Positions 1,528 through 39,869 of a stretch of DNA of 64,000 nt are shown here, in pieces. Source of the stretch: Candidatus Hydrogenedentota bacterium (GTDB lineage Bacteria > UBA8481 > J006); the NCBI GenBank assembly GCA_003697085.1, contig RFFU01000074.1, forward strand, positions 17,562 to 81,561, given 5' to 3'. The position numbers and the translations under genes were made by a program. The first letter of the stretch is position 1; each line of letters starts with the position of its first letter. The notes beneath the pieces were generated by a model. It had not been told where the DNA came from, ran no database searches, and saw nothing but the letters and a program-made list of their open reading frames with translations.

Positions 1528-1612
1528 CCCACCTCCCGGTTGTCGGAAAGGAAGGATTCTATCTTTTGCCCGCGTTCCAAACAAGAAAGAGGCATCCTCC
1601 CTCCTCCCCCCT

Positions 1613-6130: not shown

Positions 6131-6177
6131 CTTCGCGGAGCCCTTCGTGGAGGAGGCCGGCCGGGTTCTCTCCCCCG

Positions 6178-6335
6178 GTGTCATTCCGAGCGAGGCGGAG
6201 CGAAGCAACGCCGACGAGGAATCCCCCATGAGTGCCATCCAGCGCATAGCGCGGGGTTCTTACCTGCGGAAATTCGCTTCATAGAGCGGCCAACCCTGGG
6301 AACGCAGGCATCCTGCCTGCATGGAAGGGATGGAA
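6178..6335. repeat. intergenic repeats: module A (GTCATTCCGAG...CGAGGAATCCCCC, 6178-6228) plus a partial module C (6293-6335)
   Basis: Direct sequence match to copies at 11300-11350 (inverted), 29747-29778 and 39955-39986. Confidence 0.7.
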
Positions 6336-6487: not shown

Positions 6488-7474
6488 ATGTATCAAAAAC
6501 AGCGGATCGCGCTGGTTATTCCGGCTCACAACGAAGAGAAACTCATCGGAGATACGTTGCGGGGGGTTCCGGAACTTGTGGACGATATCTACGTAATTGA
6601 CGACGGTTCCACGGACGCGACCTCGGAATGCGCAAGGAAAGTCGGAGACCGCCGGGTCGTGGTCATTCGGAAGGAGAAGAACGAGGGAGTGGGAGCTGCG
6701 ATCGTTACGGGCTACAAGGTTGCCTTTGAGAGAGGCGCCGATATCGCCGTCGTGGTTGGTGGCGATAACCAGATGGACCTGGCGGAGATCGAGAATTTTC
6801 TTCGACCGATCATCGAGGGAGCGGCGGATTACACGAAAGGCAATCGGTTTCTCGATCCCTCCGGGACTTTCGAAAGAATGCCGACCGTCCGGCTCTTCGG
6901 AAATGCCTTGATTTCGGCGATGTGTAAATTGGCTTCCGGTTATTTCAAAGTTTATGATGCGGTGGACGGTTACACGGCGCTGTCGAGATATGGATTCGAG
7001 CAAGTTCGATGGAAGAAGGTCTGGAAGGGATATGGATATCCTTTGGACTTTCTCATTCGTCTCAATACTGCAGGACTTCGGGTAATGGATGTGCCGCGAC
7101 GCGCAATTTACCTTTCCGGGGTCCGACAATCCCAGATTCACGGTTTCTCGTATGCAATTCACGTGTTCCCGATGCTTCTGCGGGGTTTCTTTCGGCGACT
7201 GCTTTACAAATATATTCTTCGAGATTTCCATCCGCTCGTCTTCTTTTATTTGCTGGGGCTCTTCCTGGTTCCGGCGGGATTCGTTTTTGGCCTCTACCTC
7301 GTTTGGCAGCAGGCAAGCGGGATCGGCGTCTCCGGCCCCCGTGCCGTTTTGTGCGCCTTGGCGATCTTGATAGGAGTGCAATCCTTCTTCTTCGCCATCG
7401 CTTTCGAAATCCTGCATCAAGAATCCCCCGGAAACCGACGCCAAGAAGGTCGTTCGAAGCGACAATCGTTATGA
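6488..7474 (+). CDS. glycosyltransferase family 2 with C-terminal transmembrane helices (Dpm1/GtrB-like)
   Basis: ALVIPAHNEEKLIG...VIDDGSTDAT...VVVGGDNQMD (DxD-like) followed by hydrophobic C-terminal helices. Confidence 0.9.
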   Translation: MYQKQRIALVIPAHNEEKLIGDTLRGVPELVDDIYVIDDGSTDATSECARKVGDRRVVVIRKEKNEGVGAAIVTGYKVAFERGADIAVVVGGDNQMDLAEIENFLRPIIEGAADYTKGNRFLDPSGTFERMPTVRLFGNALISAMCKLASGYFKVYDAVDGYTALSRYGFEQVRWKKVWKGYGYPLDFLIRLNTAGLRVMDVPRRAIYLSGVRQSQIHGFSYAIHVFPMLLRGFFRRLLYKYILRDFHPLVFFYLLGLFLVPAGFVFGLYLVWQQASGIGVSGPRAVLCALAILIGVQSFFFAIAFEILHQESPGNRRQEGRSKRQSL

Positions 7475-7573
7475 GAAAACGTTTTGAGAAAATCTTTCGT
7501 AAAAAAAATCACCGACTTCACCCCTTGCGAATCTTTTTCGATCCGGCTTTATTTTTCGATAGAGAGAAGAAAC

Positions 7574-7611
7574 GATTCTCCGCAATCGGGGAGAAAGGAG
7601 AGGTGAAAACG
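7574..7611 (+). promoter_or_regulatory. conserved 38-nt 5' leader with small hairpin and strong Shine-Dalgarno (AAAGGAGAGG), copy 1
   Basis: 35/38 identical to 7791-7828. Contains CTCCG-caat-CGGGG followed by the SD, 8 nt before the ATG. Confidence 0.65.
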
Positions 7612-7758
7612 ATGGCGGAAAAGGAAGCTGAGAAGGTTGAGTCGGATTCCGGGAAGGAGCCGGAGAGGAAAGAGGAGGAGGCGCTTTCCGAGGAGGAGAT
7701 GCGGAAGGTGACGGGGGGACGACTCTTTGGAAATTCGATCGCCGGGCGGGTGCTATGA
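7612..7758 (+). CDS. double-glycine leader peptide precursor A (48 aa: 36-aa leader + 12-aa core RLFGNSIAGRVL)
   Basis: MAEKEAEKVESDSGKEPERKEEEALSEEEMRKVTGG|RLFGNSIAGRVL. L(-12), M(-7), V(-4) and GG(-2,-1) fit the C39-cleaved GG-leader consensus. Strong SD upstream. The leader is paralogous to that of the next gene. An in-frame ATG at 7471 would give a 95-aa form but is not supported by the paralog. Confidence 0.7.
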   Translation: MAEKEAEKVESDSGKEPERKEEEALSEEEMRKVTGGRLFGNSIAGRVL

Positions 7759-7790
7759 CTCGAGTGCTCTTCTTAAATGAGGGCGGAAAT

Positions 7791-7828
7791 GATTCCCCGC
7801 AGTCGGGGAGAAAGGAGAGGTGAAAAGG
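7791..7828 (+). promoter_or_regulatory. conserved 38-nt 5' leader with small hairpin and strong Shine-Dalgarno, copy 2
   Basis: GATTCCCCGCAGTCGGGGAGAAAGGAGAGGTGAAAAGG. Hairpin CCCCG-cagt-CGGGG. An in-frame TGA at 7790 prevents any longer N-terminus for the downstream gene. Confidence 0.65.
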
Positions 7829-8515
7829 ATGGCGGAAAAGGAAGACGGGAAGGCAAAAGCCGACAAAGAGAAGGAACCGGAAAGAAAACCGGAGGAACCC
7901 CTTTCGGAGGAGGAGATGAAGGATGTGGCGGGAGGGTTTATTCCCACTCCGGCCACTTTCGGGAATCCCCTTTCGTCCCGGATGGCGTCGAGATTGCGTC
8001 GGCGCGGCGCGGTCGGTCCGGTCGATCCCGAGGAGGCGGTCTCACGCGGTCCGGTCGATCCCGAACAAAGCCGGCGTCCCGACGATCCGAAACACCCGTG
8101 GCACCTTTGCTTCGGCCCGGAGACGCTGGTTCCAACGCGGAAGGGCTATCAGCCTATTTCTGGGATCGCAGTCGGTGACGAGATCGTCAGTGTCACCTTC
8201 GACGGAACCTTGTTCGTCGATCGGGTCGAAAAGCTGGACGTTCACCACGGGGAGATTTCCGTGATCGAACTTTCGTTGGACGACGACGTGATTCTCGTCA
8301 CTCCTGACCATAAGGTCTGGTCGGGCGAGAAATGGATCCGAGCCGCCGACTCGATCTATGTTTCCCGGACGAAGGTGGGAAGAATCGTTCCGGCGGTCTA
8401 TAACCTTCGAACCACCACGGGAACATACCTGGTCGGATACAGCGGACTGCTCGTTTCAGGTGGGCGGGTGGAAGACCTGCATTCCGAGGATCCGGTGGCG
8501 GAGGTTGCTCGGTAG
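7829..8515 (+). CDS. double-glycine leader precursor B fused to a Hint (Hedgehog/intein-like, BIL-type) domain (228 aa)
   Basis: Leader is MAEKEDGKAKADKEKEPERKPEEPLSEEEMKDVAGG, followed by a 57-aa Pro/Arg-rich segment. Cys94 then opens CFGPETLVPT..G..VGDEIVSV, followed by LVTPDHKVW (TxxH) and VYNLRTTTGTYLVGYSGLLVS. The ORF track starts at GTG 7820; ATG 7829 aligns with precursor A. Confidence 0.8.
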   Translation: MAEKEDGKAKADKEKEPERKPEEPLSEEEMKDVAGGFIPTPATFGNPLSSRMASRLRRRGAVGPVDPEEAVSRGPVDPEQSRRPDDPKHPWHLCFGPETLVPTRKGYQPISGIAVGDEIVSVTFDGTLFVDRVEKLDVHHGEISVIELSLDDDVILVTPDHKVWSGEKWIRAADSIYVSRTKVGRIVPAVYNLRTTTGTYLVGYSGLLVSGGRVEDLHSEDPVAEVAR

Positions 8516-8549
8516 GAATGTCTTCACCTGACAATTCCTGAAGTTCCCG

Positions 8550-8590
8550 AAGGAGGGCGTGTTTTCGGAACCGTCCTCCTTTTCTTTTTT
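8550..8590 (+). terminator. rho-independent terminator after precursor B
   Basis: AAGGAGGGCG (8550-8559), a 12-nt loop, CGTCCTCCTT (8572-8581), then TTCTTTTTT. This is a 10-bp stem with one G-U pair and a U-tract. Confidence 0.7.
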
Positions 8591-8739
8591 GCCGTGCTCG
8601 CTCGATGTCTCCCAAACGTTTCACGCTTCGATTCGCTCTTCCCCCTACCGTTCTGTATCTTCCGAGCGTTCCATCGTTTCTTAGTCCGCGCTCCCCCCTT
8701 TCCGGCGCGGGACGGCGCGTAAATGGCGGGTGGCGGGTT

Positions 8740-10986
8740 TTACCCTTGTTGGAACGGTTCCCCCGGCGCTGCCTCCGCCATACGCTCGAGAAAATAGACC
8801 GCCGGGCCGTCGTAGGGAAGTCGTCGTGCGACCTCGGTGATCGATTCCTTGGCACGGGCGACGTCCTTTTCGCGGTAGGCTCGAACGCCCTTCTCCCACG
8901 TTTCCATAACCTCCAGGTAACTCTTCGGGAGCCGTGCGGTTTCATCCACAAGTTCGTAAACATCCAACGCGGCTTTCTGTCCCCGAAGCCGAAAGACTCC
9001 GACGGTACGGAAATAGAACCGGTTTGGAGCGCACTTTTCGACCTCTTGCTTCGTCTCTCCGGACGTCAGGATTGTCGTGCCGAGATCGCGGTTGAGACTT
9101 TCGAGCCGCGAGGCGATATTGACCGTCGTGCCGATGACCGTGTAATCGAAGATCGTTTCGGAACCGAGGTTTCCGGCCACGACTTCGCCTGTATGGATTC
9201 CGATTCGAATGCCGAGATTTGGCCACACTCCGCTGGCCCACGTCTGGGCCAGCTCCGCCACCGCCCGCCGCTTTTCCAGGGCGCAGGAACAGGCGAGCAC
9301 GGCGTGCTTCTCCTGGTGAAGAGGGACGTTCCATTCGGCCATCACCGCGTCGCCGATCATCTTGTCGATCGTTCCGTCGAACGCGACGATCTTCTCGGTC
9401 ATCCTCGTGAAGTAGGTGTTGAGGAAGCGGACCAGATCTTCCGACGGCAACTCCATCGCCCACCGACTGAAGTGTTTGATATCCGAAAAGAGGACGGTCG
9501 CCGTCGTCTTTCGACCGACGAGTGTCAGCGCCGAGGGGTCCTTCAGGATCTCCCGCATTACGGAGGGGGCGACGTATTTCTGAAAGGCCAATCGCAGCCT
9601 CCGTTTCTCCTCGAACTGGTGATAGGTCCAGTCCGACAGGAGGAAGATGCTGGAGGCGAGCAAGGGAGCCGCGACCGGAAGAAGAAAGCCTTTGTTCATC
9701 AGTACTGCGGCGGCTCCCAGAAGAAGAACGCCACTTCCCGCCAAGGATGTCACTCCCCAAACCAGATTGCGGCGCATCCCCCACCATGCAAGAAACGCCG
9801 TGAGGACCGTAAGCAGCCAACCGAGCCACCTTGGAGGGAGCCGGAGGGAGGTGGGATCGAGCAGGGTTGCCGTGGCGTTTGCCAAAATCCGAGTGTAAGG
9901 AAGGGAAACGCCCAAGGGAGTCCGAATCCTCTTCCGAGCGGGACCGATCAAAACGATTCGCCCGGAAAAACGGTCCCGCGACAGCCGTTTCGGCGCGTTA
10001 TCGAAAGCCGCGTCGTGCCACAGGTCGGCGAAGGAAAGCGGTTCCCCTGGAAAGACCTCGAAACGTCCCGCCCGATCCTTTCGATTCCGTTTCGGGTTTC
10101 GGTAATAGTTGACCAGGATGGTTTCGTCCGCATTGGCGGCGCTTTGCTCCCCGAGATTCCGGAGGAGCGAACATCGTGCGCGCCCGTTTCCAGTAAACCC
10201 ACCGGAGTTGCCGGAGAGAGAAGCCGTCCAACCGGCGATCGCCAACGGCAGAGACGGGAAGAAAACGCCCTTGACCTGGAGCCAGAGTGGGAATCCCATC
10301 GTGGGGCGTTCCGGGCGCCGAAAAGCAAGGAAGCCGATCTCCGTTTTCGGAGTCGATACGCGGGACGAGGGAAAAGAGACGCTCGGAACGGAAAGAATTT
10401 TCTTCGGGGGGGTGGAAAAGGAACAGGCGGCCGCGTCGAGTACGGCGGCTTGTTGCCGGTTTGAATTCGCGAAGCCCGAGTCGATTCGGAGAGGCAGGAT
10501 GTTGGGGATTCGATCGAGCGCACTTCGAAAGGAGGCATCCTGTTCTCGGGAGAAGAGGACGGGAAATTCCGCCACGAAGGTTTCGAGTTGGCTCTCTTGT
10601 TCGGCGAGGTGTTTTCGGAGCGCGTCACGGAAGATCGTTGAATTGAGTTTGACGGGAACTTCGTCCAGTACGAAGGGAATGTGGAACGCGACCCCCTGGG
10701 CCCCGTTCTCCGCGAGATATTCGACCACCTTCGCAAAAACACTTCTCGGCCAAGGAGGTTCTCCCATTTCGGGCTTCAGTCTTCGCAAACTTTCGTCATC
10801 GATTTCCACGACCGTGAGGGGCAACTCCGTGGTCGTTTCCCGGTAATGACGGCGTATCCGAAACGCGATGGTTTCTTCCTCGAGACCCTGAACGAGATAG
10901 AACGGGTCCAAGAGGACGAAGAGGACGATCACCGCGAGAAGAAGGGTGCTCGAGTGAGAGAAGTTCTTGACCGACCTAAGAATCAT
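8740..10986 (-). CDS. CHASE2 sensor domain-containing class III adenylate/guanylate cyclase
   Basis: N-terminus VVEIDDESLRRL...GEPPWPRSVFAKVVEYLAENGAQGVAF is CHASE2-like, followed by TM helices. C-terminus TATVLFSDIKHFS...KMIGDAVMA...GIHTGEVVAGNLG...YTVIGTTVNIASRLES is the class III cyclase catalytic core. Confidence 0.9.
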   Translation of the reverse strand: MILRSVKNFSHSSTLLLAVIVLFVLLDPFYLVQGLEEETIAFRIRRHYRETTTELPLTVVEIDDESLRRLKPEMGEPPWPRSVFAKVVEYLAENGAQGVAFHIPFVLDEVPVKLNSTIFRDALRKHLAEQESQLETFVAEFPVLFSREQDASFRSALDRIPNILPLRIDSGFANSNRQQAAVLDAAACSFSTPPKKILSVPSVSFPSSRVSTPKTEIGFLAFRRPERPTMGFPLWLQVKGVFFPSLPLAIAGWTASLSGNSGGFTGNGRARCSLLRNLGEQSAANADETILVNYYRNPKRNRKDRAGRFEVFPGEPLSFADLWHDAAFDNAPKRLSRDRFSGRIVLIGPARKRIRTPLGVSLPYTRILANATATLLDPTSLRLPPRWLGWLLTVLTAFLAWWGMRRNLVWGVTSLAGSGVLLLGAAAVLMNKGFLLPVAAPLLASSIFLLSDWTYHQFEEKRRLRLAFQKYVAPSVMREILKDPSALTLVGRKTTATVLFSDIKHFSRWAMELPSEDLVRFLNTYFTRMTEKIVAFDGTIDKMIGDAVMAEWNVPLHQEKHAVLACSCALEKRRAVAELAQTWASGVWPNLGIRIGIHTGEVVAGNLGSETIFDYTVIGTTVNIASRLESLNRDLGTTILTSGETKQEVEKCAPNRFYFRTVGVFRLRGQKAALDVYELVDETARLPKSYLEVMETWEKGVRAYREKDVARAKESITEVARRLPYDGPAVYFLERMAEAAPGEPFQQG

Positions 10987-11129: not shown

Positions 11130-11560
11130 TGCGTGGAGCGCGGATTCACCAGTCTGCGGATGGCCGAACCGCTCTGCACAGGTTGGAGAACCTGCGGCCC
11201 ATCCTTGCAGGCAAGATGCGTGCGCTCCGAGGGAGCGTAGACTCTCCAGTCTGCGAATTGCTAATTCGCCCTCCGTGGAAGGGGCTGGTTAGCGCTGGTG
11301 GGGGATTCCTCGTCGGCGTCGCTTCGCGCCGCCTCTCTCGGAATGACACAAGGGGGGAGCGAAGCGACACACTGTTGTCATCCCGAGTTCGCCTCAAGGC
11401 GAACGACGGATCTCCCCAACGCGGTATTCCGCATTGCGAACCGATCGGTGCCTGTGGGGGATTCCTCGGCGCTAATGCGCCTCGGACTGACAGGCCGATC
11501 CGGCTCCATGTTCGCCGTGTTACGGAGCGCGGAGACTCCTGTCTGCGAATTCAGCGATCC
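11130..11560. repeat. intergenic repeat island (modules E, C-inverted, A-inverted, A variants)
   Basis: Module E (GAGCGCGGAyTC.CCAGTCTGCG) at ~11136, 11232 and 11525. Module C inverted at 11179-11233. Module A inverted at 11300-11350. Module A variants at 11376-11417 and 11456-11492. Confidence 0.7.
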
Positions 11561-14315: not shown

Positions 14316-14672
14316 TGTCCTTCCGAGGAGGCCGAAGGCCAACGAGGAATCCCCCGCGGGAGCGAAACCGGCCCCCTGGAAGTATGGCGAAAAACGGGCA
14401 CCGTTTGTCGGATCGTGTCCGTCCACTCCGGCGCGAAACCCCGCATGGGATCGGGACGGGCGAAAGGTGACCCTCTGCGAACCCGTTTTTGCAGGCAAGA
14501 TGCCTGCCTGTCGGCAGGCAGGCCCGCGCTCCCAGGACACGCTTCCCATTCCCTTTTCGTTTCCCTTCCCCATTCCCTTTTTTTTGCCCTTGCCTTTGCC
14601 CTTGCCCTTCCCGCGTGATACTCCGTGGAGGGGATTCCTCAATCGCCTTACGGCGATTTTCGGAATGATAAA
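14316..14672. repeat. intergenic repeat island upstream of the exporter operon (A variant, F-inverted, C-inverted, B-inverted, A-inverted)
   Basis: 14383-14480 is the reverse complement of 28430-28535 (module F). C inverted at 14485-14536. The C-rich complement of purine module B at 14542-14613. A inverted at 14628-14672. Confidence 0.75.
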
Positions 14673-14875: not shown

Positions 14876-15496
14876 ATGATAGGTTGGGAAACGATGCGAA
14901 AGGTCCTTTTCATTCTCGGGCTCCTGACGGATCAGGATGTTGAACGCCTCGGGAGGCTGGGGTCCATCGAGAAGATTTCAGCGGGAGCGACGTTGATAGA
15001 AGCGGGGCGTCATCCCGACAAGGTCTATTTCATACTCAGCGGTATTTTTCGTGTTACGCGGAACGCTGCCGTCGGTACGGAGGGGGCGAGCGAGGGGGCG
15101 GTGGGTTCGAAAAACGTCGTGGCGGAACTGCGCGCGGGTGAAGTATTGGGGGAGATGTCGTTCGTTCAAGATGCGCCGCCGACGGAGACGGTCACGGCGG
15201 TCGGGGAGGGTGAGGTCTTGGCGATACCCCGCGAGGACCTCCGCGCCGTTCTCGAATCGGATCCCGCTTTCGCCTCGCGTTTTTATCAAGCCATCGCCGC
15301 TTTTCTTGCGGATCGCCTGCGCGGAACGATGAACCGGCTCTATGGGAGGCCGACGGAAACGGCGGGAGCGGGAGACGATGACTCGGAGAGAGGAACGATT
15401 CTCGAAGAGGACGAGTTGGATCCCCGCGTTCTTGATCGTGTTTCGCGTGCCGGAGAACGATTCGACCGATTGCTCAAGAAGTTCCGCGGGAGATAA
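14876..15496 (+). CDS. bacteriocin-transport-associated cyclic nucleotide-binding domain protein (cyc_nuc_ocin-like)
   Basis: cNMP-binding beta-barrel: AGATLIEAGRHPDKVYFILSGIFRV...RAGEVLGEMSFVQDAPPTETVTAVGEGEVLAI. First gene of the exporter operon. An alternative ATG lies at 14894. The phosphate-binding-cassette Arg appears replaced (PPTET versus PRSAT). Confidence 0.8.
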   Translation: MIGWETMRKVLFILGLLTDQDVERLGRLGSIEKISAGATLIEAGRHPDKVYFILSGIFRVTRNAAVGTEGASEGAVGSKNVVAELRAGEVLGEMSFVQDAPPTETVTAVGEGEVLAIPREDLRAVLESDPAFASRFYQAIAAFLADRLRGTMNRLYGRPTETAGAGDDDSERGTILEEDELDPRVLDRVSRAGERFDRLLKKFRGR

Positions 15497-15501
15497 GACG
15501 T

Positions 15502-16746
15502 ATGGTCGAATATCGCAAGGCGGCGCTCGATAAACTTGCTTCCCCCGAGCAACTCGACCGTCTCATTACGGTCACCGGTTCCCGTAGTTGGCTCGCTCTG
15601 GGCTCCATCTGTTTTCTTCTTCTCCTGATCCTCGTTTGGAGTGTCGTCGGGCGGATCCCCGTCACCGTCTCGGGACGCGGAATCCTGATCCGGGAGGGGG
15701 GGTTGGTTGAGATCGAGAGTCTGGGGACGGGATTAATTTCGGAGCTCCTGGTGGAGGAAGGGGATCACGTGGAGCCGGGCCAGCTGGTCGCTCGGATCCG
15801 ACAACCGACGCTCGTAACGGAGATCGAACAAGCGCGGGATCGGGTGCAGGAGCTCGAGGTGCAGCGGGAACGGACTTCGAAGCTAGAGTCGGAACGTGTC
15901 CGGCTGGGGGCCGCCGCGCTCGACCAACAGGAGGCGGAATTGCGAGGAACGATCCGCACCTCTCGGGAACGTGTTGCGTGGTTGGAGAAGCGGGTGGAGG
16001 CCTATCGCGATGCTGTTCGCGAGGGGCTGATCACGGAGGAGGAGTTGCGGCGGGTGATGAAGGAACGGGCGAGCGAGCGGGAGGTGATCGCGCGGGCCGA
16101 ATCCCGTCTCAAGAAGATCGCGTCGGATCGCCAAGCGCTGGAGACCGAGCGGGAGCGAAATCTTCTTGCGATCGACAAACAGCTCAGCGACGCCCGGCGG
16201 ACGCTGGCGGCTTTGGAGTCGCGGCTTCGCGAGGAAGGGCAGGTGTTTTCTCCGCACCGGGGCCGGGTCGTGGAGATCAAGGTCGAGCAAGGAGCGATTG
16301 TGACGAGGAACGCGGCCCTGATGAGTCTCGAGGCGGAAACGGGCCCGCTGGTCGCCGAGGTTTTCATTCCGGTCGAGGCGAAGAAGATACGCCGTGGGAT
16401 GGCGGCGCGGATCGCTCCCGCCACGGTGAAAAAGGAAGAGTACGGGATGATTGTCGGGCGCGTGGACGGTGTCTCGGCGCTTCCCGCCACGCGGGAAGGG
16501 ATGATGCATCTTTTGAAGAACGAATTGTTGGTCAAAGAACTGGCTTCGCGCGGCGCCCCCTTCCGTGTCACGTTGTCGCTCGAGGAGGATTCGGCGAGTT
16601 TCAGCGGTTTCCGATGGACCTCCTCGCGCGGGCCGAGAGTGCGGATCGAAAGCGGGATGCTCTGCGAGGGACGGATCGTCGTGGAGAAGAAGGCGCCGAT
16701 CCGCTTTCTTATTCCGGCGCTCAAGTCCTTCTTCGGCATAACGTAA
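15502..16746 (+). CDS. NHLM-type bacteriocin system secretion adaptor (HlyD family membrane fusion protein)
   Basis: N-terminus YRKAALDKLASPEQLDRLITVT, one TM helix, a long coiled coil, then barrel-type domains. Positioned directly before the C39-ABC gene. Confidence 0.88.
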   Translation: MVEYRKAALDKLASPEQLDRLITVTGSRSWLALGSICFLLLLILVWSVVGRIPVTVSGRGILIREGGLVEIESLGTGLISELLVEEGDHVEPGQLVARIRQPTLVTEIEQARDRVQELEVQRERTSKLESERVRLGAAALDQQEAELRGTIRTSRERVAWLEKRVEAYRDAVREGLITEEELRRVMKERASEREVIARAESRLKKIASDRQALETERERNLLAIDKQLSDARRTLAALESRLREEGQVFSPHRGRVVEIKVEQGAIVTRNAALMSLEAETGPLVAEVFIPVEAKKIRRGMAARIAPATVKKEEYGMIVGRVDGVSALPATREGMMHLLKNELLVKELASRGAPFRVTLSLEEDSASFSGFRWTSSRGPRVRIESGMLCEGRIVVEKKAPIRFLIPALKSFFGIT

Positions 16747-16757
16747 CTCGGAGAACG

Positions 16758-18962
16758 ATGGCTGTCGCCGCCGCGGAAGGTATCAAACCGTCTTCGGGAA
16801 AACCGCGGTTCCGTCGTGTCCGAACGCCGACGGTTCTTCAGATGGAGGCGGTGGAGTGCGGCGCGGCATCGCTGGCGATTATTCTCGAGTATTACGGCCG
16901 CGTGGTTCCGCTCGAGGAACTTCGCGTCGCATGCGGGGTGACGCGGGACGGAAGCAACGCCTTTCATTTGATCTCGGCTGCGCGGGAGTACGGATTCGAA
17001 GCCCACGGATACCGAAAGGACATTCCCCACCTCTACAACATCAAACCGCCCTTCATCATCTTCTGGAACTTCAACCATTTTTTGGTCGTCGAGGGATTGG
17101 CCAAGGATCGCGTTTTTCTCAACGATCCCGCGATGGGACCGCGCGTCGTTCCGATGGACGAATTCAACGAGTCCTACACCGGCGTTGTTCTGACCTTTGA
17201 ACCGACGCCGCGCTTCAGGAGAGGGGGACGCCGTCCGAGCCTGTCAGCGGCGGTCTGGAACCGCGTACGCCACTCTTCCGAAGGCATCGCCTACGCCGCT
17301 GTGGCGGCCGTCGCGCTCGTCGGCCCCGGATTGGCGGTTCCCGCCTTTTCGCGGATCTTCATCGATGACATTCTCATCGGCGGAATGCACGACTGGATCC
17401 GTCCCGTCCTGCTCGGTTTGGCGATCACTGGGTTTTTTCGCGTCTTTCTTACCTTTCTCCAGTCCCATTCTCTTCTTCGGCTCGAAACGAAACTTTCGAT
17501 CACCCAGACCGGTCGCTTTTTGCACCATATCCTTCATCTTCCCGTCTCGTTCTACCAGCAGCGTTACGGCGGAGAAATCAGCAACCGAGTCGGTTTCAAT
17601 TCGGACATCGCCCGCATCCTTTCGAACCGTCTCGCCGGAACGATCCTGGACCTTTTCATGACTGTCTTTTATGGAACGGTTCTCTTTCTGCTTTCTCCGG
17701 TGTTGATGCTGATTGCGGTTCTGGGAGTGGCCGCGAATGCCGTTACGGCTCGGACGATGCATCGGACCCTGACCGACGAGAACCTCCGTCTTCAGCAAGA
17801 GGCCGGAGCGACTTTGTCCGCGGCGATGTCCGGCGTGGCCTCGATCGAGACGCTGAAGGCGACGGGGAGCGAATCGGACTTCTTCGCGAACTGGGCGGGG
17901 CATCACGCGAAATACACGGTGACGATGCAAAACCTGAGTCTCAAAAGTGCTCTCTATTCCTCCCTCTCGACCCTCGTGAATTCCCTTTCGGACGTGGCGA
18001 TTCTGGGAGCCGGGGCCCTTCTGATTATGAACGGCCGCATCACGATGGGAACCTTTGTCGCCTTTCACGCGCTCTCCGCCTCCTTTGCGGGTCCGGTGAC
18101 GCGGATCATCAATCTCGCGACGGTGATTCAAGCCTTGCGCGCGCGCCTTGTCCGTCTCGACGACGTGCTCAATCACAAACACGCGCCGGACCTGCGGGTC
18201 GCGGAATCGACGCCGGTCGTTGCAGAAGAGGAAGAGAAACTTTCGGGACATCTCGAGATCCGCAATCTCACCTTCGGCTATTCGCGTTTCGATCCGCCGT
18301 TGATCGAGAATTTTTCGATGACGATCGCTCCGGGCGGGCGCGTGGCTTTGGTGGGGGCATCGGGATGCGGGAAATCGACATTGGCGAAACTGATCACCGG
18401 ATTGTACGAGCCGTGGGAGGGTGAGATTTATTTCGACGGACGTCCGCGAAAGGCGATCCCGCGTTCCGTGCTTACGAGCTCCGTTGCGATGGTGGATCAA
18501 GAGATTTCACTCTTTTCCGGAACCATTCGCGAGAACATTACACTTTGGGACGAGACGATTCCGGATATCGAAGTGGTGCGGGCGGCCAAGGATGCGGCGA
18601 TTCACTCCGAGATCACAGCGCGCGCGGGGGGATATGACGCGGAGTTGGAGGAGGGAGGAGCGAATCTTTCCGGCGGTCAACGCCAGAGGCTGGAGATCGC
18701 CCGGGCGCTCGTGACGAATCCTCGCCTGCTGATTCTGGACGAGGCGACCAGCGCTCTCGATCCCGTGACCGAGAAGGAGATCGATCGCAATCTGCGGGTG
18801 CGCGGTTGTACCTGCGTGATCGTCGCCCATCGGCTTTCGACGATTCGCGACGCGGACGAGATCATCGTCCTTGAACGCGGCCGGGTGGTTCAAAGGGGGA
18901 CGCACGAGGAATTGATCGCCGATCCGGACGCGCCGTATGCGCGATTGGTAAAGGCTCAATGA
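16758..18962 (+). CDS. peptidase C39 domain-containing ABC transporter (NHLM-type ABC1, peptidase/permease/ATPase)
   Basis: C39 domain reads VLQMEAVECGAASLAIILEYYG (Gln28/Cys34), NHFLVVEG (His), LNDP (Asp). Six-helix TMD. Walker A GASGCGKST, signature LSGGQRQR, Walker B LILDEATSALD. The ORF-track start at 15978 is an upstream out-of-gene extension; ATG 16758 lies 11 nt after the HlyD stop. Confidence 0.92.
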   Translation: MAVAAAEGIKPSSGKPRFRRVRTPTVLQMEAVECGAASLAIILEYYGRVVPLEELRVACGVTRDGSNAFHLISAAREYGFEAHGYRKDIPHLYNIKPPFIIFWNFNHFLVVEGLAKDRVFLNDPAMGPRVVPMDEFNESYTGVVLTFEPTPRFRRGGRRPSLSAAVWNRVRHSSEGIAYAAVAAVALVGPGLAVPAFSRIFIDDILIGGMHDWIRPVLLGLAITGFFRVFLTFLQSHSLLRLETKLSITQTGRFLHHILHLPVSFYQQRYGGEISNRVGFNSDIARILSNRLAGTILDLFMTVFYGTVLFLLSPVLMLIAVLGVAANAVTARTMHRTLTDENLRLQQEAGATLSAAMSGVASIETLKATGSESDFFANWAGHHAKYTVTMQNLSLKSALYSSLSTLVNSLSDVAILGAGALLIMNGRITMGTFVAFHALSASFAGPVTRIINLATVIQALRARLVRLDDVLNHKHAPDLRVAESTPVVAEEEEKLSGHLEIRNLTFGYSRFDPPLIENFSMTIAPGGRVALVGASGCGKSTLAKLITGLYEPWEGEIYFDGRPRKAIPRSVLTSSVAMVDQEISLFSGTIRENITLWDETIPDIEVVRAAKDAAIHSEITARAGGYDAELEEGGANLSGGQRQRLEIARALVTNPRLLILDEATSALDPVTEKEIDRNLRVRGCTCVIVAHRLSTIRDADEIIVLERGRVVQRGTHEELIADPDAPYARLVKAQ

Positions 18963-21877
18963 CGGCGCGCGATCTGCTCGCGTCTCTCGCTCGGCTCGGT
19001 CCAGAACGGGATGTGAGCGGGAAGGAGACGTTCTACGTTCAGGGAGCCGAACGCGCGTGGGTCCTGACGAAAGGCGTTGTCGATGTCTTCGCGGTTATGC
19101 TCGAGGACGAGCGGCCCATCGGCCCGCGACATTACCTCTTCAGCGCCTCGCCGGGAATCATTCTCTTCGGTGTCGATCTTCTCCGCTACCACAAGCGTTG
19201 TGCTCTGTTGGCGGTCGGAGTTCCGGGAACGCGTGTTGTTTCCTTCGGCATCGCGGATTTGGTCGAGACGGCCCGGCGAAGTGGAACGCTGGAGGCGCTG
19301 GCGAGGCAGATTGAGGATTTTTCTGGAAAGGTAGGGGCGCTCTTCACCGCTCGTGAGCGGCCACCGTTCGATGAATTTCTCGCCGTGGGAGAGGAACGAG
19401 AGGTTCCGGCGGGTCGTGTTCTCGGAACGGAGCGCGGAATTACTTGGGTCCACGTGATCGGGGGGAAGGTCCGGCTCTGTGGTTTCGAGGATCTCGTCGT
19501 GGAGGCCGACGGCACCGCCGTTCCTCTCGCCCCGGGGCTTTGGCTCGAAACACTTATTGCGTCACATCTCGAGGTGATCGACAGCCGCGCGTTGCTTGAA
19601 CGCGATCCGCGCCTGAAGGCGTTGGGAAATTTGCAAGCCGTATATGTCCGATGGATCGAGGACCGCATCGCGGCGAAGCGGGCCGAGGAGCGGGAACGAA
19701 TTTCCCGGAGGCGTGAGCGGGATCAGGCGATTCTTGCCAAGGCTCTGGAGGATCTTAGCAGTGTTCTTGTCGGAAAAGGGCGCGCCGTGCCGGAGCACGA
19801 TCGTCCTCTGTTGGCCGCCTTGAATCGGATCGGCGCCGCGCTCGATTTGGATTTTCACCTTCCTTCGGAGTGGGAGTTGAGCCGGTACGGCGCCGCGCCT
19901 CTCGAGGCCATCTGCCGCCGTTCGCGGATCCGCCACCGGCGGGTGGCCCTTTACGGAGATTGGTATCGCCGGGACAACGGGCCGTTATTGGTCTTTCGAG
20001 ACAAGGAGCACGGGGCAACGCCCGTAGCCGCGGTTCCTCTTTCGGAGTCGCAGTACGAATACTTTGACCCTGTCACGGGAGCGACGGGGATTCTGACGCG
20101 GGATGTTGCCGCCACGCTCGATCCCTTCGGCGTGATGTTTTATCCTCCGCTTCCCGCAAAACCGCTTCACGTCTTTCAACTACTCAGACACGGAAGCCGG
20201 TTCGTTTCGAAGGACCTCCGGCGGGTGTTGGGGTTGAGTTTGGCGGCCGGCGCGCTTTCGCTGGCGTTGCCGTGGGCGACAGGGCTCCTTTTCAGCGACG
20301 TGATTCCTTCTTCCGAGCGACCGCTTCTTCTGCAGGTTGTTTTAGCGCTGTTGATCGCTTCTTCCGTCCAGACGCTCTTCCATTTCGTTCGCACGATTGC
20401 GCTGACGCGGATGCGGGCACGGTGGGGCGAGACGGTTCAGGCGGCGCTGTGGGACCGGATCGCTTCCTTGCCTCCGCGATTCTTCCGCCGCTTCACCGTC
20501 GGGGATCTCGTGGATCGCGCCGAGGTCGTGGATCACCTGCGCGAGGAACTCAGCGGCGCCGGGCTGACGGCCATCATCGGCGGGTTGATGTCGCTGATGC
20601 AATTTATTTTGATGTTCTACTATAGCCGGGTTCTCGCTCTGGGAGCCTTGGGAATCACGGCGCTCTTTGCTCTCGTGACCGGAGGCCTTGCCGTGGGAAT
20701 GCTGCGGTACGAGAGGGAGATGCAGAGGATCGCGGGGCGCCTCTCGGGTTTTCTTTACCAGGTGATCACCGGCATTGCCAAGATTCGGGTGGCGGGGGCC
20801 GAGGAACGGGCGTTTGCGGAATGGGCGCGACGGTTCCGCCGCGAACGCCTTCTCCGCTTCCGGGCCGGCTCCTACCAGAACATCATTCTCACCGTCAATG
20901 CCGGGCTGCCGATCCTTTCGACGATTCTCGTCTTTCTCCTTGTGCGTTATGCCGCGTTGCTCCCGGAGGGAGCCTGGATCAGTGTCGGGGATTTCATTGC
21001 CTTCAACGCCGCGATGACCGTCTTCCTCAACTCCGCGCTTTCGCTTACCGACACGGCGGTCAACCTTCTCAACCTCGTCCCGATGTTCGAACGCGTCGAG
21101 CCGATTCTTGTGACGGAGCCGGAAGCGCGGGAGGATCGGCCGGATCCGGGGCGCATCACCGGTTCTGTCGAGATGAGTCACGTTTCGTTTCGGTATCATC
21201 CCGACGGGCCGCTTGTTCTCGACGATGTTTCGTGGTCGGCGGCGCCCGGGGAGTTCGTTGCGTTGGTCGGGCCGTCCGGGGGAGGCAAATCGACGATCAT
21301 CCGGTTGTTGCTGGGATTCGAAATCCCGGAGACGGGAAACATCTATTTCGATGGGAGGGATGTATCGGCGGTGGACGTCACGGCGTTGCGGCGTCAGATC
21401 GGAGTCGTTCTCCAGAACAGCCGGCTCCGCCCCGGCTCGATCTTCGACAATATCGTCGGTTCCTCGAATCTTACCCTCGATGATGCCTGGCGTGTGGCCG
21501 AGCAGGCGGGTTTGAAGGAGGATATCGAGGCGATGCCGATGGGAATGCACACGAACATTTCCGAGGGAGGGACGACGTTTTCGGGGGGGCAGCGACAACG
21601 AATTCTGATCGCCCGCGCGCTGATTCATCAACCGCGAATCCTGATCTTCGACGAAGCGACGAGTGCCCTGGACAACACGACGCAGAAAGTCGTCTCCGAC
21701 AGTCTCGACCGTCTCAATGCAACGCGGATCGTGATCGCCCATCGCCTTTCGACGATCCGAAATGCCGACAGAATCTATGTAATCGAGAAGGGAAGGATTG
21801 TACAACGGGGAAACTACGAGGAATTGATGACGGAGGGAGGTCTATTCACCGACCTCGCGCGCCGTCAACTCGCTTAG
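18959..21877 (+). CDS. second ABC transporter of the NHLM-type system (ABC2; long N-terminal regulatory-like domain, no peptidase)
   Basis: ATGA overlap with ABC1. About 400-aa N-terminal region with a degenerate cNMP-barrel-like start, then a TMD, Walker A GPSGGGKST, signature FSGGQRQR, Walker B LIFDEATSALD. Confidence 0.9.
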   Translation: MTARDLLASLARLGPERDVSGKETFYVQGAERAWVLTKGVVDVFAVMLEDERPIGPRHYLFSASPGIILFGVDLLRYHKRCALLAVGVPGTRVVSFGIADLVETARRSGTLEALARQIEDFSGKVGALFTARERPPFDEFLAVGEEREVPAGRVLGTERGITWVHVIGGKVRLCGFEDLVVEADGTAVPLAPGLWLETLIASHLEVIDSRALLERDPRLKALGNLQAVYVRWIEDRIAAKRAEERERISRRRERDQAILAKALEDLSSVLVGKGRAVPEHDRPLLAALNRIGAALDLDFHLPSEWELSRYGAAPLEAICRRSRIRHRRVALYGDWYRRDNGPLLVFRDKEHGATPVAAVPLSESQYEYFDPVTGATGILTRDVAATLDPFGVMFYPPLPAKPLHVFQLLRHGSRFVSKDLRRVLGLSLAAGALSLALPWATGLLFSDVIPSSERPLLLQVVLALLIASSVQTLFHFVRTIALTRMRARWGETVQAALWDRIASLPPRFFRRFTVGDLVDRAEVVDHLREELSGAGLTAIIGGLMSLMQFILMFYYSRVLALGALGITALFALVTGGLAVGMLRYEREMQRIAGRLSGFLYQVITGIAKIRVAGAEERAFAEWARRFRRERLLRFRAGSYQNIILTVNAGLPILSTILVFLLVRYAALLPEGAWISVGDFIAFNAAMTVFLNSALSLTDTAVNLLNLVPMFERVEPILVTEPEAREDRPDPGRITGSVEMSHVSFRYHPDGPLVLDDVSWSAAPGEFVALVGPSGGGKSTIIRLLLGFEIPETGNIYFDGRDVSAVDVTALRRQIGVVLQNSRLRPGSIFDNIVGSSNLTLDDAWRVAEQAGLKEDIEAMPMGMHTNISEGGTTFSGGQRQRILIARALIHQPRILIFDEATSALDNTTQKVVSDSLDRLNATRIVIAHRLSTIRNADRIYVIEKGRIVQRGNYEELMTEGGLFTDLARRQLA

Positions 21878-28364: not shown

Positions 28365-28535
28365 ACAGGTATTCCTGGGAGCGCAGGCCCGCCTGCTGGC
28401 AGGCAGGCATCTTGCCTCTGCAATGACGGACTCGGAGAAGGTTACCTTTCGGCCGCCCCGATCCTATGCAGGGGGTTCGCCTAGGGAGTGGTCTGATACG
28501 ATTCGGCGAAAGCTTCCCGTTTTTCGCCATGCACC
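28365..28535. repeat. intergenic repeats (module C variant + module F)
   Basis: CCTGGGAGCGCAGGCCCGCCTGCTGGCAGGCAGGCATCTTGCC..., followed by ~100 bp whose reverse complement recurs at 14383-14480. Confidence 0.7.
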
Positions 28536-39835: not shown

Positions 39836-39869
39836 GGGCCAGGCCTGTCTGCTCTGAGTGCCCGCCAAT

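What the first reader, a model, noticed from the sequence alone, without database searches (positions are those of the whole stretch)
7574..7936. Tandem precursor genes share a novel 36-aa Lys/Glu-rich GG leader, and their 38-nt 5' leader is more conserved than the coding sequence
SEEN:
- 7574-7611 and 7791-7828 are 35/38 identical, and each ends exactly at an ATG.
- Each contains a 5-bp hairpin (CTCCG-caat-CGGGG and CCCCG-cagt-CGGGG; the T/C difference keeps pairing as G-U/G-C) abutting AAAGGAGAGG.
- The leaders that follow are the same length and clearly homologous: MAEKEAEKVESDSGKEPERKEEEALSEEEMRKVTGG versus MAEKEDGKAKADKEKEPERKPEEPLSEEEMKDVAGG. At DNA level they are visibly more diverged than the untranslated leader (by-eye comparison, not computed).
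- Gene A encodes only a 12-aa core (RLFGNSIAGRVL). It resembles residues 6-20 of core B (ATFGNPLSSRMASRL, shared FGN).

INFERENCE:
- The untranslated leader is under its own constraint, for example a translational or RNA-stability element.
- Gene A is either a genuine short peptide product or a truncated duplicate of B.
- The leader is neither NHLP-like nor Nif11-like, although the nearby exporter is of the type usually paired with those leaders.
Basis: partly seen in the sequence, partly recalled or inferred. Interest (0 to 1): 0.6.

Follow-up and report, generated by a model that had tools for sequence, protein, structure and literature searches.

The report
Export-leader peptide genes, one Hint-fused
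Two neighbouring genes share an export leader and an unusually well conserved ribosome-binding region; the second is not a small peptide gene but a 228-residue protein whose leader and conserved peptide are followed by a self-cleaving Hint (intein-like) domain, a combination I found in no paper searched.

Summary
The two 38-nt upstream segments are 35/38 identical. The 36-codon leaders are 78/108 identical, and their synonymous sites are near saturation (dS about 1.6, dN/dS 0.13). The conserved block runs from -42 to +16 (54/58 identical).

The interpretation needs correction:
- **Leader.** Its last 12 residues (LSEEEM..V.GG) fit the canonical double-glycine motif. It matches no NHLP or Nif11 model. 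Only the Lys/Glu-rich N-terminal part is unusual.
- **Gene B.** It encodes 228 aa: leader (1-36), a 57-aa Pro/Arg-rich peptide (37-93), then a Hint/bacterial-intein-like domain (94 to about 212). That domain keeps Cys1 and T-x-x-H but has no C-terminal His-Asn. It most likely cleaves itself off at Leu93|Cys94.
- **Relatives.** A Hint-less 69-aa homologue of leader plus peptide exists elsewhere as a stand-alone gene. The same Hint clade is fused behind classical GG leaders, a mersacidin-type lanthipeptide leader, and a long GG-ending N-domain next to B12-radical-SAM genes.
- **Gene A.** Its 12-aa core is either a short secreted peptide or an old truncated paralogue. This is unresolved.
- **Hairpin.** It is small, not significant against shuffles, and absent from all related loci.

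Selection on the translation-initiation region and a short gene-conversion tract cannot be told apart.

The parts
7475..7573 (+). AT-rich intergenic region between the GT2 gene and the conserved block; probable promoter region for A-B
   Evidence: 36% G+C against 59% for the window. GC3 of the in-frame 5' extension annotated by NCBI (95-aa version, P0127) is 45%, against 71% in 7612-7758. The strict sigma-70 consensus scan found no hit.
7570..7627 (+). Conserved block, copy 1 (-42 to +16 relative to the gene A ATG)
   Evidence: 54/58 identical to 7787-7844. The block spans the hairpin, the Shine-Dalgarno sequence, the spacer, the ATG and codons 2-5.
7577..7592 (+). Small hairpin, copy 1 (TCTCCG-CAAT-CGGGGA; 6 bp including one G-U)
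   Evidence: Read from the sequence. Folds at -9.5 kcal/mol, z=-1.5, not significant.
7595..7606 (+). Extended Shine-Dalgarno AAGGAGAGGTGA, 5 nt before the ATG
   Evidence: Sequence. Identical in both copies.
7612..7758 (+). Gene A: 48 aa, made of a 36-aa double-glycine leader (7612-7719) and a 12-aa core RLFGNSIAGRVL (7720-7755), then stop
   Evidence: Translation. NCBI annotates a 95-aa form starting at 7471 (P0127). ATG 7612 is preferred because gene B has the same RBS and start, has an in-frame TGA at 7790 inside the conserved block, and because of the GC3 values.
7787..7844 (+). Conserved block, copy 2
7794..7809 (+). Small hairpin, copy 2 (TCCCCG-CAGT-CGGGGA)
   Evidence: Folds at -10.1 kcal/mol, z=-1.5.
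7829..7936 (+). Gene B leader (aa 1-36), ending LSEEEMKDVAGG
   Evidence: Translation. The motif scan of the whole window finds only A and B as plausible double-glycine leaders. The AF2 model places a helix at residues 27-33.
7937..8107 (+). Gene B core peptide (aa 37-93, 57 aa): FIPTPATFGNP...RLRRRG..GPVDPEEAVSRGPVDPEQSRRPDDPKHPWHL
   Evidence: The only homologue of this stretch is the stand-alone 69-aa peptide P0023 (53% identity over B residues 18-86; aligned). Predicted disordered, pLDDT below 50 for residues 45-82.
8108..8464 (+). Gene B Hint / bacterial-intein-like domain (aa 94 to about 212), starting with the nucleophile Cys94 (TGC 8108-8110) and containing T158-P-D-H161
   Evidence: Pfam Hint_2 is below threshold for B itself (18.7 bits), but homologues pass the gathering scores. 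AF2 pLDDT is about 90 or higher over most of 90-210. Foldseek against PDB ranks BIL2 (6y75), C. thermocellum BIL (2lwy) and hedgehog HhC (1at0) at the top, all at probability 1.0. The family profile matches 2lwy at E=2.5e-12. C94, T158 and H161 are invariant in the alignment.
8465..8515 (+). Gene B C-terminal tail (16 aa) and stop codon; nothing follows the Hint domain
   Evidence: Translation.
14876..21877 (+). NHLM-type exporter, the presumed partner: cNMP-binding protein (14876-15496), HlyD-type adaptor (15502-16746), C39-peptidase ABC transporter (about 16776-18962) and a second ABC subunit (18959-21877)
   Evidence: TIGR03794 348 bits, TIGR03796 1027 bits, TIGR03797 876 bits, all above their cut-offs. 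TIGR03896 is below its cut-off (131.7 against 161). Peptidase_C39 E=3.9e-36.

Best explanation
The locus is an old tandem duplication of the front end of a gene: ribosome-binding region plus double-glycine export leader. It sits in a Candidatus Hydrogenedentota genome. Both genes are most likely substrates of the C39-peptidase ABC exporter 6.4 kb downstream, which would cut after Gly36.

Gene B is a three-part protein:
- a leader (residues 1-36);
- a conserved 57-residue Pro/Arg-rich peptide (37-93);
- a C-terminal Hint (bacterial-intein-like) domain.

The Hint domain keeps its N-terminal Cys and its T-x-x-H motif. It has lost the C-terminal His-Asn and has no C-extein. It can therefore perform only the first intein step: an N-to-S acyl shift at Leu93-Cys94. 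Resolution of that thioester, by water or another nucleophile, detaches the peptide. The Hint domain thus acts as a self-removing C-terminal "follower". The mature product would be residues 37-93. Whether self-cleavage comes before or after export is not known.

Gene A carries the same leader and only a 12-residue core. It is either a short co-exported peptide or a truncated paralogue.

The near-identity of -42..+16 reflects constraint on, or homogenisation of, the translation-initiation region. That region is an extended Shine-Dalgarno sequence with fixed spacing, preceded by a small stem-loop that could stabilise the mRNA 5' end.

Shown here: the Hint fold, the catalytic residues, the leader motif, the exporter family and the conservation statistics. 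Inferred: cleavage at both sites, export, and any role of the hairpin.
For: Identity of gene B:
- B equals an NCBI 'hypothetical protein' of a Candidatus Hydrogenedentota MAG.
- An exhaustive phmmer search gives 126 hits, all but one (P0023, which matches leader plus core) through residues from about 84 to 218.
- Homologues P0002, P0003, P0005 and P0006 pass Pfam gathering scores for Hint_2, PT-HINT or Hint.
- The AF2 model matches BIL, hedgehog HhC and mini-intein structures at probability 1.0.
- The family profile matches the C. thermocellum BIL 2lwy at E=2.5e-12.
- C94, T158 and H161 are invariant. The family ends ...LVSG(G) where 2lwy continues to its C-terminal splice residues.
- BILs that lack block G perform cleavage uncoupled from splicing (PMC4031507).

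The core is a real cargo:
- P0023 (69 aa) has a related leader and core, and stops 3-4 residues before the position of the Cys.
- It has its own -35/-10 elements and Shine-Dalgarno sequence, and is followed by a clear intrinsic terminator.

Leader:
- A, B and P0023 all have L(-12), E(-8), a hydrophobic or small residue at -7, V(-4) and GG.
- NCBIfam gives weak hits to two double-glycine peptide families.
- A and B are the only such ORFs in the window, and a complete NHLM exporter is present.

The architecture recurs. The same Hint clade follows:
- classical GG leaders (P0002, P0003, P0005, P0006, P0027);
- a mersacidin-type leader, TIGR03898 at 64 bits, with a tandem paralogue next to it;
- a 185-aa N-domain ending LSPAEMNELQGG, flanked by two B12-radical-SAM genes.

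Gene A leader under selection: dN/dS is 0.13 with dS about 1.6.

UTR: the statistics are. The true start of A is supported by the GC and GC3 values and by the in-frame TGA in B's copy of the block.
Against: - No cleavage or export has been observed.
- B itself is below Pfam's Hint_2 threshold (18.7 against 28.4 bits).
- The exporter is 6.4 kb away, separated by genes on the other strand.
- No PCAT is visible next to any other GG-Hint gene. Most of those contigs are short, but L020 is 13 kb and has none.
- The usual cargo of this kind of transporter is, as far as I know, a small unfolded peptide. Passage of a folded Hint domain of about 15 kDa is therefore doubtful unless cleavage comes first.
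- Many members of the Hint clade have no GG leader at all (P0008-P0010, L007, L008), or sit at the end of 2300-aa proteins.
- The hairpin is not significant, is absent from every related locus and matches no Rfam family.
- A gene-conversion tract explains the UTR identity equally well.
- dN/dS from 36 codons of low-complexity sequence is imprecise.
Confidence: 0.6

Rival explanations
1. The excess identity of the UTR is a by-product of a short gene-conversion tract of about 58 bp between two old tandem paralogues. It is not due to selection on an RNA element, and the hairpin has no function.
For: - The identity block has sharp edges at -42 and +16 and includes synonymous sites in codons 2-5.
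- Only two copies exist.
- The hairpin is not better than shuffled sequence.
- Related loci lack it.
Against: - The block coincides with the translation-initiation region: extended Shine-Dalgarno sequence, spacer, start codon.
- The single change within the stem keeps pairing (G-U versus G-C).
- The tract still holds 4 differences, so it is not a very recent event.
Confidence: 0.4
2. Gene A is a decaying truncated duplicate of the front of gene B and makes no functional product.
For: - The core is only 12 aa.
- It resembles only the start of the B core (FGNSIAGRV against FGNPLSSRM, 5 of 2000 shuffles), and there is no DNA similarity beyond the GG.
- No homologue of the A core exists in 5.8 billion proteins; the profile search returns only P0023 and A itself.
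Against: - The ORF is intact, with the same strong RBS.
- All leader positions needed for recognition are retained.
- Leader dN/dS is 0.13 although dS is about 1.6. A pseudogene of that age should have pushed the pairwise ratio towards about 0.5 and acquired stops or frameshifts.
- From my own knowledge, peptides of 10-20 residues behind GG leaders are normal products of this kind of exporter, for example competence and bacteriocin-inducing pheromones.
Confidence: 0.4
3. The Hint domain does more than hydrolyse. Its thioester is captured by a specific nucleophile, so the peptide leaves with a modified C-terminus. Possible outcomes are ligation to a lipid, a cell-envelope amine or a protein (as in hedgehog cholesterol transfer or Tetrahymena BUBL conjugation), or head-to-tail cyclisation after leader removal.
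For: - The best structural matches are BUBL BIL2 and hedgehog HhC, both of which, from my own knowledge, pass the acyl group to a non-water nucleophile.
- D137, H139 and G141 form a strongly conserved LDVHxG motif in this clade. H139 is invariant and D137 and G141 are nearly so.
- A DPKHP motif just upstream of the Cys is conserved across unrelated cores.
Against: - The Hint-less homologue P0023 implies that the peptide works with an ordinary C-terminus.
- Nothing resembling a sterol- or substrate-binding region follows the Hint domain; there are only 16 residues.
- The core is Pro-rich and predicted disordered, unlike known circular bacteriocins.
Confidence: 0.2
4. Gene B is an intracellular or polymorphic-toxin-type Hint protein. 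The GG motif is coincidental, and B is unrelated to the exporter.
For: - Several clade members lie at the C-terminus of RHS-like or very large surface proteins (P0007, L006, L009, L011).
- PT-HINT hits occur in homologues.
- No PCAT is seen beside the other loci.
Against: - In polymorphic toxins the Hint precedes a toxin domain. Here nothing follows it.
- The 12-residue GG motif is conserved in A, B and P0023 while the rest of the leader drifts.
- Four different export or RiPP leader types are fused to the same clade.
Confidence: 0.12

Closest known systems
Double-glycine (class II bacteriocin / peptide-pheromone type) leaders processed by C39-peptidase ABC exporters (PCATs), including the NHLM exporter set TIGR03794/03796/03797
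   Same: - The leader ends in GG, with hydrophobic residues at -4, -7 and -12 and Glu at -8.
- A complete NHLM-type exporter with a C39 domain lies in the same neighbourhood.
- The precursor genes are tandem paralogues.
   Different: - The leader has an extra 24-residue Lys/Glu-rich N-terminal extension.
- It matches no curated leader model above threshold.
- Gene B carries a 135-residue folded domain after the core.
- The exporter is 6.4 kb away rather than adjacent.
Bacterial intein-like (BIL) domains, e.g. Clostridium thermocellum BIL (PDB 2lwy); type B BILs that cleave without splicing
   Same: - Hint fold, Cys1 nucleophile and block B T-x-x-H.
- No C-extein +1 nucleophile.
- Found in secreted, variable proteins.
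   Different: - No C-terminal His-Asn and no C-extein at all: the domain is terminal.
- It sits behind an export leader and a short peptide rather than inside a large surface protein.
Hedgehog C-terminal autoprocessing (Hog/HhC) domain, PDB 1at0
   Same: - Domain order: an N-terminal signalling or cargo part followed by a C-terminal Hint that removes itself through a thioester at its first Cys.
- Structural match at probability 1.0.
   Different: - No sterol-recognition region follows the Hint domain.
- Bacterial, with a tiny disordered cargo.
- No evidence of transfer to a lipid.
Pretoxin-HINT of polymorphic toxin systems (PF07591)
   Same: Homologues score on PT-HINT. Some clade members follow RHS-type cores.
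   Different: PT-HINT lies upstream of a C-terminal toxin domain that it releases. In gene B nothing lies downstream of the Hint domain, so the released part is the upstream peptide.

Membership tests
Double-glycine leader peptides (PCAT substrates) | Gly at -2 and Gly/Ala/Ser at -1; hydrophobic residues at -4, -7 and -12; acidic residue at -8 | tested here: met
   A has LSEEEMRKVTGG, B has LSEEEMKDVAGG and P0023 has LSEEEAREVRGG. The regex scan of the whole window finds only A and B as plausible cases. The consensus itself is from my own knowledge.
Double-glycine leader peptides (PCAT substrates) | Match to a curated leader or bacteriocin model above its cut-off | tested here: not met
   Only sub-threshold hits for A: NF038035 at 16.8 bits against a cut-off of 37, and TIGR04149 at 16.4 against 25. 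B has no hit.
Double-glycine leader peptides (PCAT substrates) | Cognate C39-peptidase ABC transporter nearby | tested here: met
   TIGR03796 at 1027 bits and Peptidase_C39 at E=3.9e-36, at about 16776-18962, 8.3 kb from the end of B; the four-gene exporter set begins 6.4 kb downstream. The partner subunits are present. It is not in the same operon.
Double-glycine leader peptides (PCAT substrates) | Cleavage after GG and export | not testable with these tools
   Needs an in vitro C39 assay or peptidomics.
NHLP (TIGR03793) / Nif11 (TIGR03798) leader families | Sequence match to the leader-domain model | tested here: not met
   Neither A nor B gives any NHLP or Nif11 hit at E<=0.01 in NCBIfam.
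Hint superfamily (inteins, BILs, Hog) | Hint fold | tested here: met
   AF2 gives pLDDT of about 90 or higher for most of residues 90-210. Foldseek against PDB returns 40 matches at E<=1e-3, all Hint-fold domains.
Hint superfamily (inteins, BILs, Hog) | N-terminal Cys/Ser nucleophile and block B T-x-x-H | tested here: met
   C94, T158 and H161 are invariant in a 13-sequence alignment.
Hint superfamily (inteins, BILs, Hog) | Curated domain model above threshold | tested here: inconclusive
   B scores 18.7 bits on Hint_2 against a cut-off of 28.4. Homologues at E of about 1e-17 to B do pass: P0005 at 36.3 and P0002 at 35.8 on Hint_2, P0006 at 35.7 on PT-HINT, P0003 at 32.3 on Hint. The family profile matches PDB 2lwy at E=2.5e-12.
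True inteins / type A BILs (splicing-competent) | C-terminal His-Asn, and a C-extein beginning with Cys/Ser/Thr (inteins) | tested here: not met
   The domain ends ...GLLVSGG, followed by a 16-residue tail. There is no His-Asn and no C-extein.
Hedgehog/Hog proteins | Sterol-recognition region after the Hint module, and cholesterol transfer | tested here: not met
   Only 16 residues follow the Hint domain. Transfer chemistry cannot be tested here.
Polymorphic-toxin pretoxin-HINT | Hint followed by a C-terminal toxin domain, with an immunity gene | tested here: not met
   No domain follows the Hint. The next gene is a convergent CHASE2 adenylate cyclase.
RiPP precursor | Dedicated modifying enzymes encoded beside the precursor | tested here: inconclusive
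   The neighbours are a GT2, a GT1, a methyltransferase and an Rce1-like protease upstream, and a cyclase downstream. None is a recognised RiPP tailoring enzyme. Relatives P0018 (two B12-radical-SAM neighbours) and P0041 (mersacidin-type leader) do sit in RiPP-like settings.

The most novel reading that the evidence does not exclude
Gene B represents an undescribed class of ribosomal peptide precursor with the order leader, core, Hint. In this class an intein-like domain is a built-in, self-removing follower that hands the exported peptide an activated thioester C-terminus. The thioester would then be captured by an amine or hydroxyl. Outcomes could be head-to-tail cyclisation after leader removal, or ligation to a lipid, the cell envelope or another protein. 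That would be a bacterial counterpart of hedgehog lipidation or of enzyme-free BUBL conjugation. The class has arisen repeatedly behind at least four unrelated export or RiPP leader types.
Probability: 0.2. Interest if true: 0.85.

Novelty: new variant of a known kind. Interest (0 to 1): 0.55.

Why it matters
If the Hint domain does act as a self-cleaving follower on exporter-targeted peptides, this would add a maturation step that needs no separate enzyme to bacteriocin and RiPP biology. It would also show a natural use of intein chemistry to make defined, possibly activated, peptide C-termini. The same clade sits behind a lanthipeptide-type leader and next to B12-radical-SAM genes, which suggests the device is modular and reusable. 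That bears on genome mining, because precursor finders discard 200-400-aa ORFs, and on peptide engineering. The UTR observation alone matters much less. It is a two-copy, locus-specific feature that could serve as a test case for mRNA or translation control of precursor stoichiometry.

Tried and rejected
- **Rfam on 7000-9000, E<=1.** Only a chance miRNA hit on the opposite strand.
- **Sigma-70 and terminator scan of 7300-8900.** No promoter and no plus-strand terminator between A and B or after B.
- **RNA folding of both UTRs, with and without flanks.** The small hairpin appears, but z is only -1.5 for the two 38-nt segments. With flanks (71 nt) z is -1.1 for copy 1 and +0.35 for copy 2, and the minimum-energy structures differ between the copies.
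- **Covariation analysis.** Not possible: the UTR motif has 0 matches in metagenome contigs and only two copies in the window.
- **The search for related loci with family alignments.** Failed twice because no sufficiently conserved stretch was available. I replaced it with a degenerate DNA pattern for YN[LIV]RT..G[TS]Y[LIV][VI]G. This gave 5 genome loci and 5 metagenome loci, all leaderless or at the C-terminus of giant proteins. They say nothing about export.
- **Search for a PCAT beside other GG-Hint genes.** None seen. The contigs are 1-13 kb.
- **Search for Hint remnants after gene A.** Nothing in any frame.
- **The NCBI 95-aa version of gene A.** Rejected on GC and GC3, and because B has a stop codon inside the homologous block.
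- **Proline-rich antimicrobial peptide.** Considered for the B core but not pursued, because the net charge is about 0.
- **Second C39 site at the conserved ...LVSGG.** Considered and dropped, because the motif is also present in leaderless members.
- **Literature.** No paper in the library combines 'Hint domain' with 'double-glycine' or 'precursor peptide', 'NHLP' with 'Hint', or 'intein-like' with 'RiPP' or 'leader peptide'.
Full report
**1. What is in the sequence**

The window belongs to a Candidatus Hydrogenedentota metagenome-assembled genome. Gene B is identical to NCBI 'hypothetical protein' D6679_07460 on a 199.7-kb contig.

Gene A runs from 7612 to 7758 and encodes 48 aa: MAEKEAEKVESDSGKEPERKEEEALSEEEMRKVTGG followed by RLFGNSIAGRVL. 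Gene B runs from 7829 to 8515 and encodes 228 aa, not a short peptide.

NCBI annotates gene A as 95 aa, starting at ATG 7471 (P0127). I reject that start for three reasons:
- The extension lies in a 36% G+C stretch of a 59% G+C window.
- Its GC3 is 45%, against 71% for 7612-7758.
- Gene B's copy of the conserved block contains an in-frame TGA at 7790, so the block cannot be coding there.

**2.

- The two 38-nt upstream segments are 35/38 identical.
- The leaders are 78/108 identical in DNA and 24/36 in protein.
- Third codon positions match at only 21/36.
- By Nei-Gojobori, dS is about 1.6, dN is 0.21 and dN/dS is 0.13.

The duplication is therefore old, and the leader has stayed under purifying selection. 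The UTR is about twenty times less diverged than synonymous sites (Fisher p=0.0009).

The conserved block is really -42..+16, at 54/58 identical, against 62/92 for the rest of the leader (p=0.0002). It includes four synonymous sites in codons 2-5. The constraint, or the homogenisation, is therefore at the nucleotide level.

The block contains three elements:
- a 6-bp hairpin (7577-7592 and 7794-7809);
- an extended Shine-Dalgarno sequence, AAGGAGAGGTGA;
- a 5-nt spacer.

The hairpin alone is unremarkable (z=-1.5). It matches no Rfam family. It is absent from the only locus with a homologous leader and from nine other family loci. The motif does not occur in 241 million metagenome records. Covariation therefore cannot be assessed. 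Selection on the translation-initiation region and a short gene-conversion tract remain equally viable explanations.

No terminator or consensus promoter separates A from B, so co-transcription from the AT-rich region upstream of A is likely.

**3. The leader**

The last twelve residues are L(-12)SEEE(-8)M(-7)xxV(-4)xGG in A and B, and LSEEEAREVRGG in P0023. From my own knowledge this fits the classical double-glycine consensus.

NCBIfam shows no NHLP or Nif11 match. It gives only weak hits to two GG-peptide families. The AF2 model puts a short helix on residues 27-33.

The Lys/Glu-rich N-terminal part is low-complexity. In P0023 it is much shorter. The leader is therefore a variant of a known kind, not a new kind.

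A regex scan finds A and B as the only plausible GG-leader ORFs in the 64 kb. The NHLM exporter is complete at 14876-21877: a cNMP-binding protein, the TIGR03794 adaptor, the TIGR03796 C39-ABC subunit and the TIGR03797 ABC subunit. It starts 6.4 kb downstream of B. Between them lie a convergent CHASE2 adenylate cyclase, a PLD-like gene and a gene for a nucleotidyltransferase-substrate-binding protein.

**4. Gene B carries a Hint domain**

- The exhaustive search of 1.84 billion representatives gave 126 hits. All but one, P0023, come through residues from about 84 to 218.
- B itself scores only 18.7 bits on Pfam Hint_2.
- Homologues at E of about 1e-17 pass the gathering thresholds of Hint_2, PT-HINT or Hint, and of TIGR01445 intein_Nterm.
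- The AF2 model is confident over the domain. Its best PDB matches are the Tetrahymena BUBL BIL2 domain, the C. thermocellum BIL domain, the hedgehog autoprocessing domain and mini-inteins, all at probability 1.0.
- The family profile hits 2lwy at E=2.5e-12.
- Cys94, Thr158 and His161 are invariant.
- The domain ends ...LVSGG and has no His-Asn. Only 16 residues follow it.

According to the review PMC4031507, BILs lack the +1 nucleophile, and type B BILs lack block G and perform cleavage uncoupled from splicing. The chemistry left to gene B is thioester formation at Leu93-Cys94 and release of the upstream part.

**5. The upstream part is a real peptide**

P0023 is a 69-aa protein from an unrelated metagenome contig. 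It aligns with B residues 18-86 at 53% identity. The shared motifs are FIPTPA.(F/L)G(N/D)P, RLRR and GP(V/I)DP..SRGP(V/I)DP. It stops 3-4 residues before the position of the Cys. Its gene has its own -35/-10 elements and Shine-Dalgarno sequence, and is followed by a strong intrinsic terminator.

The cargo therefore exists both with and without the Hint domain. This places the mature C-terminus of B at or near Leu93. It also argues that plain release, rather than exotic chemistry, is sufficient for function.

**6. The architecture recurs**

Within the same Hint clade I found:
- classical GG leaders, of the form M.RI.I.DLP....E..I.GG (P0002, P0003, P0005, P0006) and SQVSGG (P0027);
- a mersacidin/lichenicidin-type lanthipeptide leader, TIGR03898 at 64 bits against a cut-off of 23.5, followed by a Ser/Thr/Cys-rich core (P0041), with a second such gene in tandem;
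- four proteins with an N-domain of about 185 aa ending KLS..EM...QGG. One of them sits between two B12-binding radical-SAM genes.

Other clade members have only 23-31 residues before the Cys and no leader. Others sit at the end of RHS-like or 2300-aa surface proteins of Planctomycetota.

No paper in the searchable library links Hint or intein-like domains with double-glycine, NHLP, RiPP or precursor peptides. Absence from that library does not prove novelty.

No PCAT was visible beside the other GG-Hint genes, but most of those contigs were short.

**7. Gene A**

Its 12-aa core resembles only the start of the B core (5 of 2000 shuffles). Nothing Hint-like follows it. The intact RBS, the retained recognition motif and the low dN/dS argue against a long-dead pseudogene. 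The lack of any homologue and the tiny core argue the other way. I put a genuine short product at about 0.55 and a decaying duplicate at about 0.4.

**8. Mechanism proposed, with status of each step**

- A and B are co-transcribed and efficiently translated from near-identical initiation regions (inferred).
- The Hint domain of B folds and cleaves at Leu93|Cys94 through a thioester (inferred from conserved residues and fold).
- The C39 domain of the NHLM exporter removes the leader after Gly36 and exports the peptide or peptides (inferred from the motif and the neighbourhood).
- The order of these two cleavages is unknown. Cleavage before export seems more compatible with what I know of PCAT cargo size.

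**9. Verdict**

The finding is real and partly well interpreted. I rate it a new variant of known kinds (GG-leader precursors and BIL/Hog autoprocessing). Interest is moderate, and it would rise sharply if the thioester is used for ligation or cyclisation.

Noticed in passing
window 8740-10986 (-), with 14876-15496 and 18959-21877 (+): A CHASE2-sensor adenylate/guanylate cyclase lies between the precursor genes and an exporter that includes a cNMP-binding protein (TIGR03896-like, below its cut-off). The N-terminal 280 residues of the second ABC subunit are outside the TIGR03797 model. This suggests possible cyclic-nucleotide control of export by an extracellular signal. A cNMP-binding gene also sits directly upstream of the Hint gene P0008 in L023 (9441-9896).
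   Followed up: no
window 14384-14640, 28373-28530, 29746-29984, 39857-40334, 55618-55689; shorter pieces at 6166-6243 and 11179-11363: A dispersed repeat family of about 60-160 bp, 80-89% identical, in both orientations and mostly intergenic. It yields spurious 'GKGKGKG' ORFs. It may be a MITE- or REP-like element.
   Followed up: no
window 709-1584 (-); L020 7130-7738: An Rce1-like/CPBP intramembrane protease gene lies 6 kb upstream of A-B (PF02517, E=1e-11). Another lies 1.1 kb downstream of the GG-Hint gene P0027. From my own knowledge, this family often provides bacteriocin self-immunity.
   Followed up: partly
window 7471-7611: The NCBI annotation of gene A (D6679_07455, 95 aa) probably starts 141 nt too far upstream, in a low-GC intergenic stretch.
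   Followed up: yes
L015 5100-5771 and 5990-6631: Two tandem genes, each made of a mersacidin-type lanthipeptide leader, a Ser/Thr/Cys-rich core and a C-terminal Hint domain. A P450 gene lies upstream. No LanM gene is visible on the 6.6-kb contig.
   Followed up: partly
L016 3172-11526: P0018 has an N-domain of about 185 aa ending LSPAEMNELQGG, then a Gly-rich segment, then a Hint domain. It sits among two B12-binding radical-SAM genes, methyltransferase and sulfotransferase genes and an Orn/DAP decarboxylase gene. This looks like a RiPP-like cluster.
   Followed up: partly
Alignment A1, residues -9 to -4 before the Hint Cys (B residues 85-90): A D-P-K-H-P motif just upstream of the scissile bond is conserved across GG-Hint proteins whose cores are otherwise unrelated. 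[quoted passage not shown] Conservation of N-extein residues is unusual for Hint domains.
   Followed up: no
window 1660-2718 (-): A 352-aa protein with an EF-hand pair followed by about ten tandem 17-residue repeats (HPEVAKKLYENRKWLNE). The DNA repeat is visible at 1873-2292.
   Followed up: no
L006 and L009 (Planctomycetaceae and Pirellulaceae MAGs): Surface-type proteins of about 2300 aa with many Calx-beta-like repeats end in the same Hint clade, with nothing after it. This implies hedgehog-like C-terminal self-removal from giant proteins.
   Followed up: no
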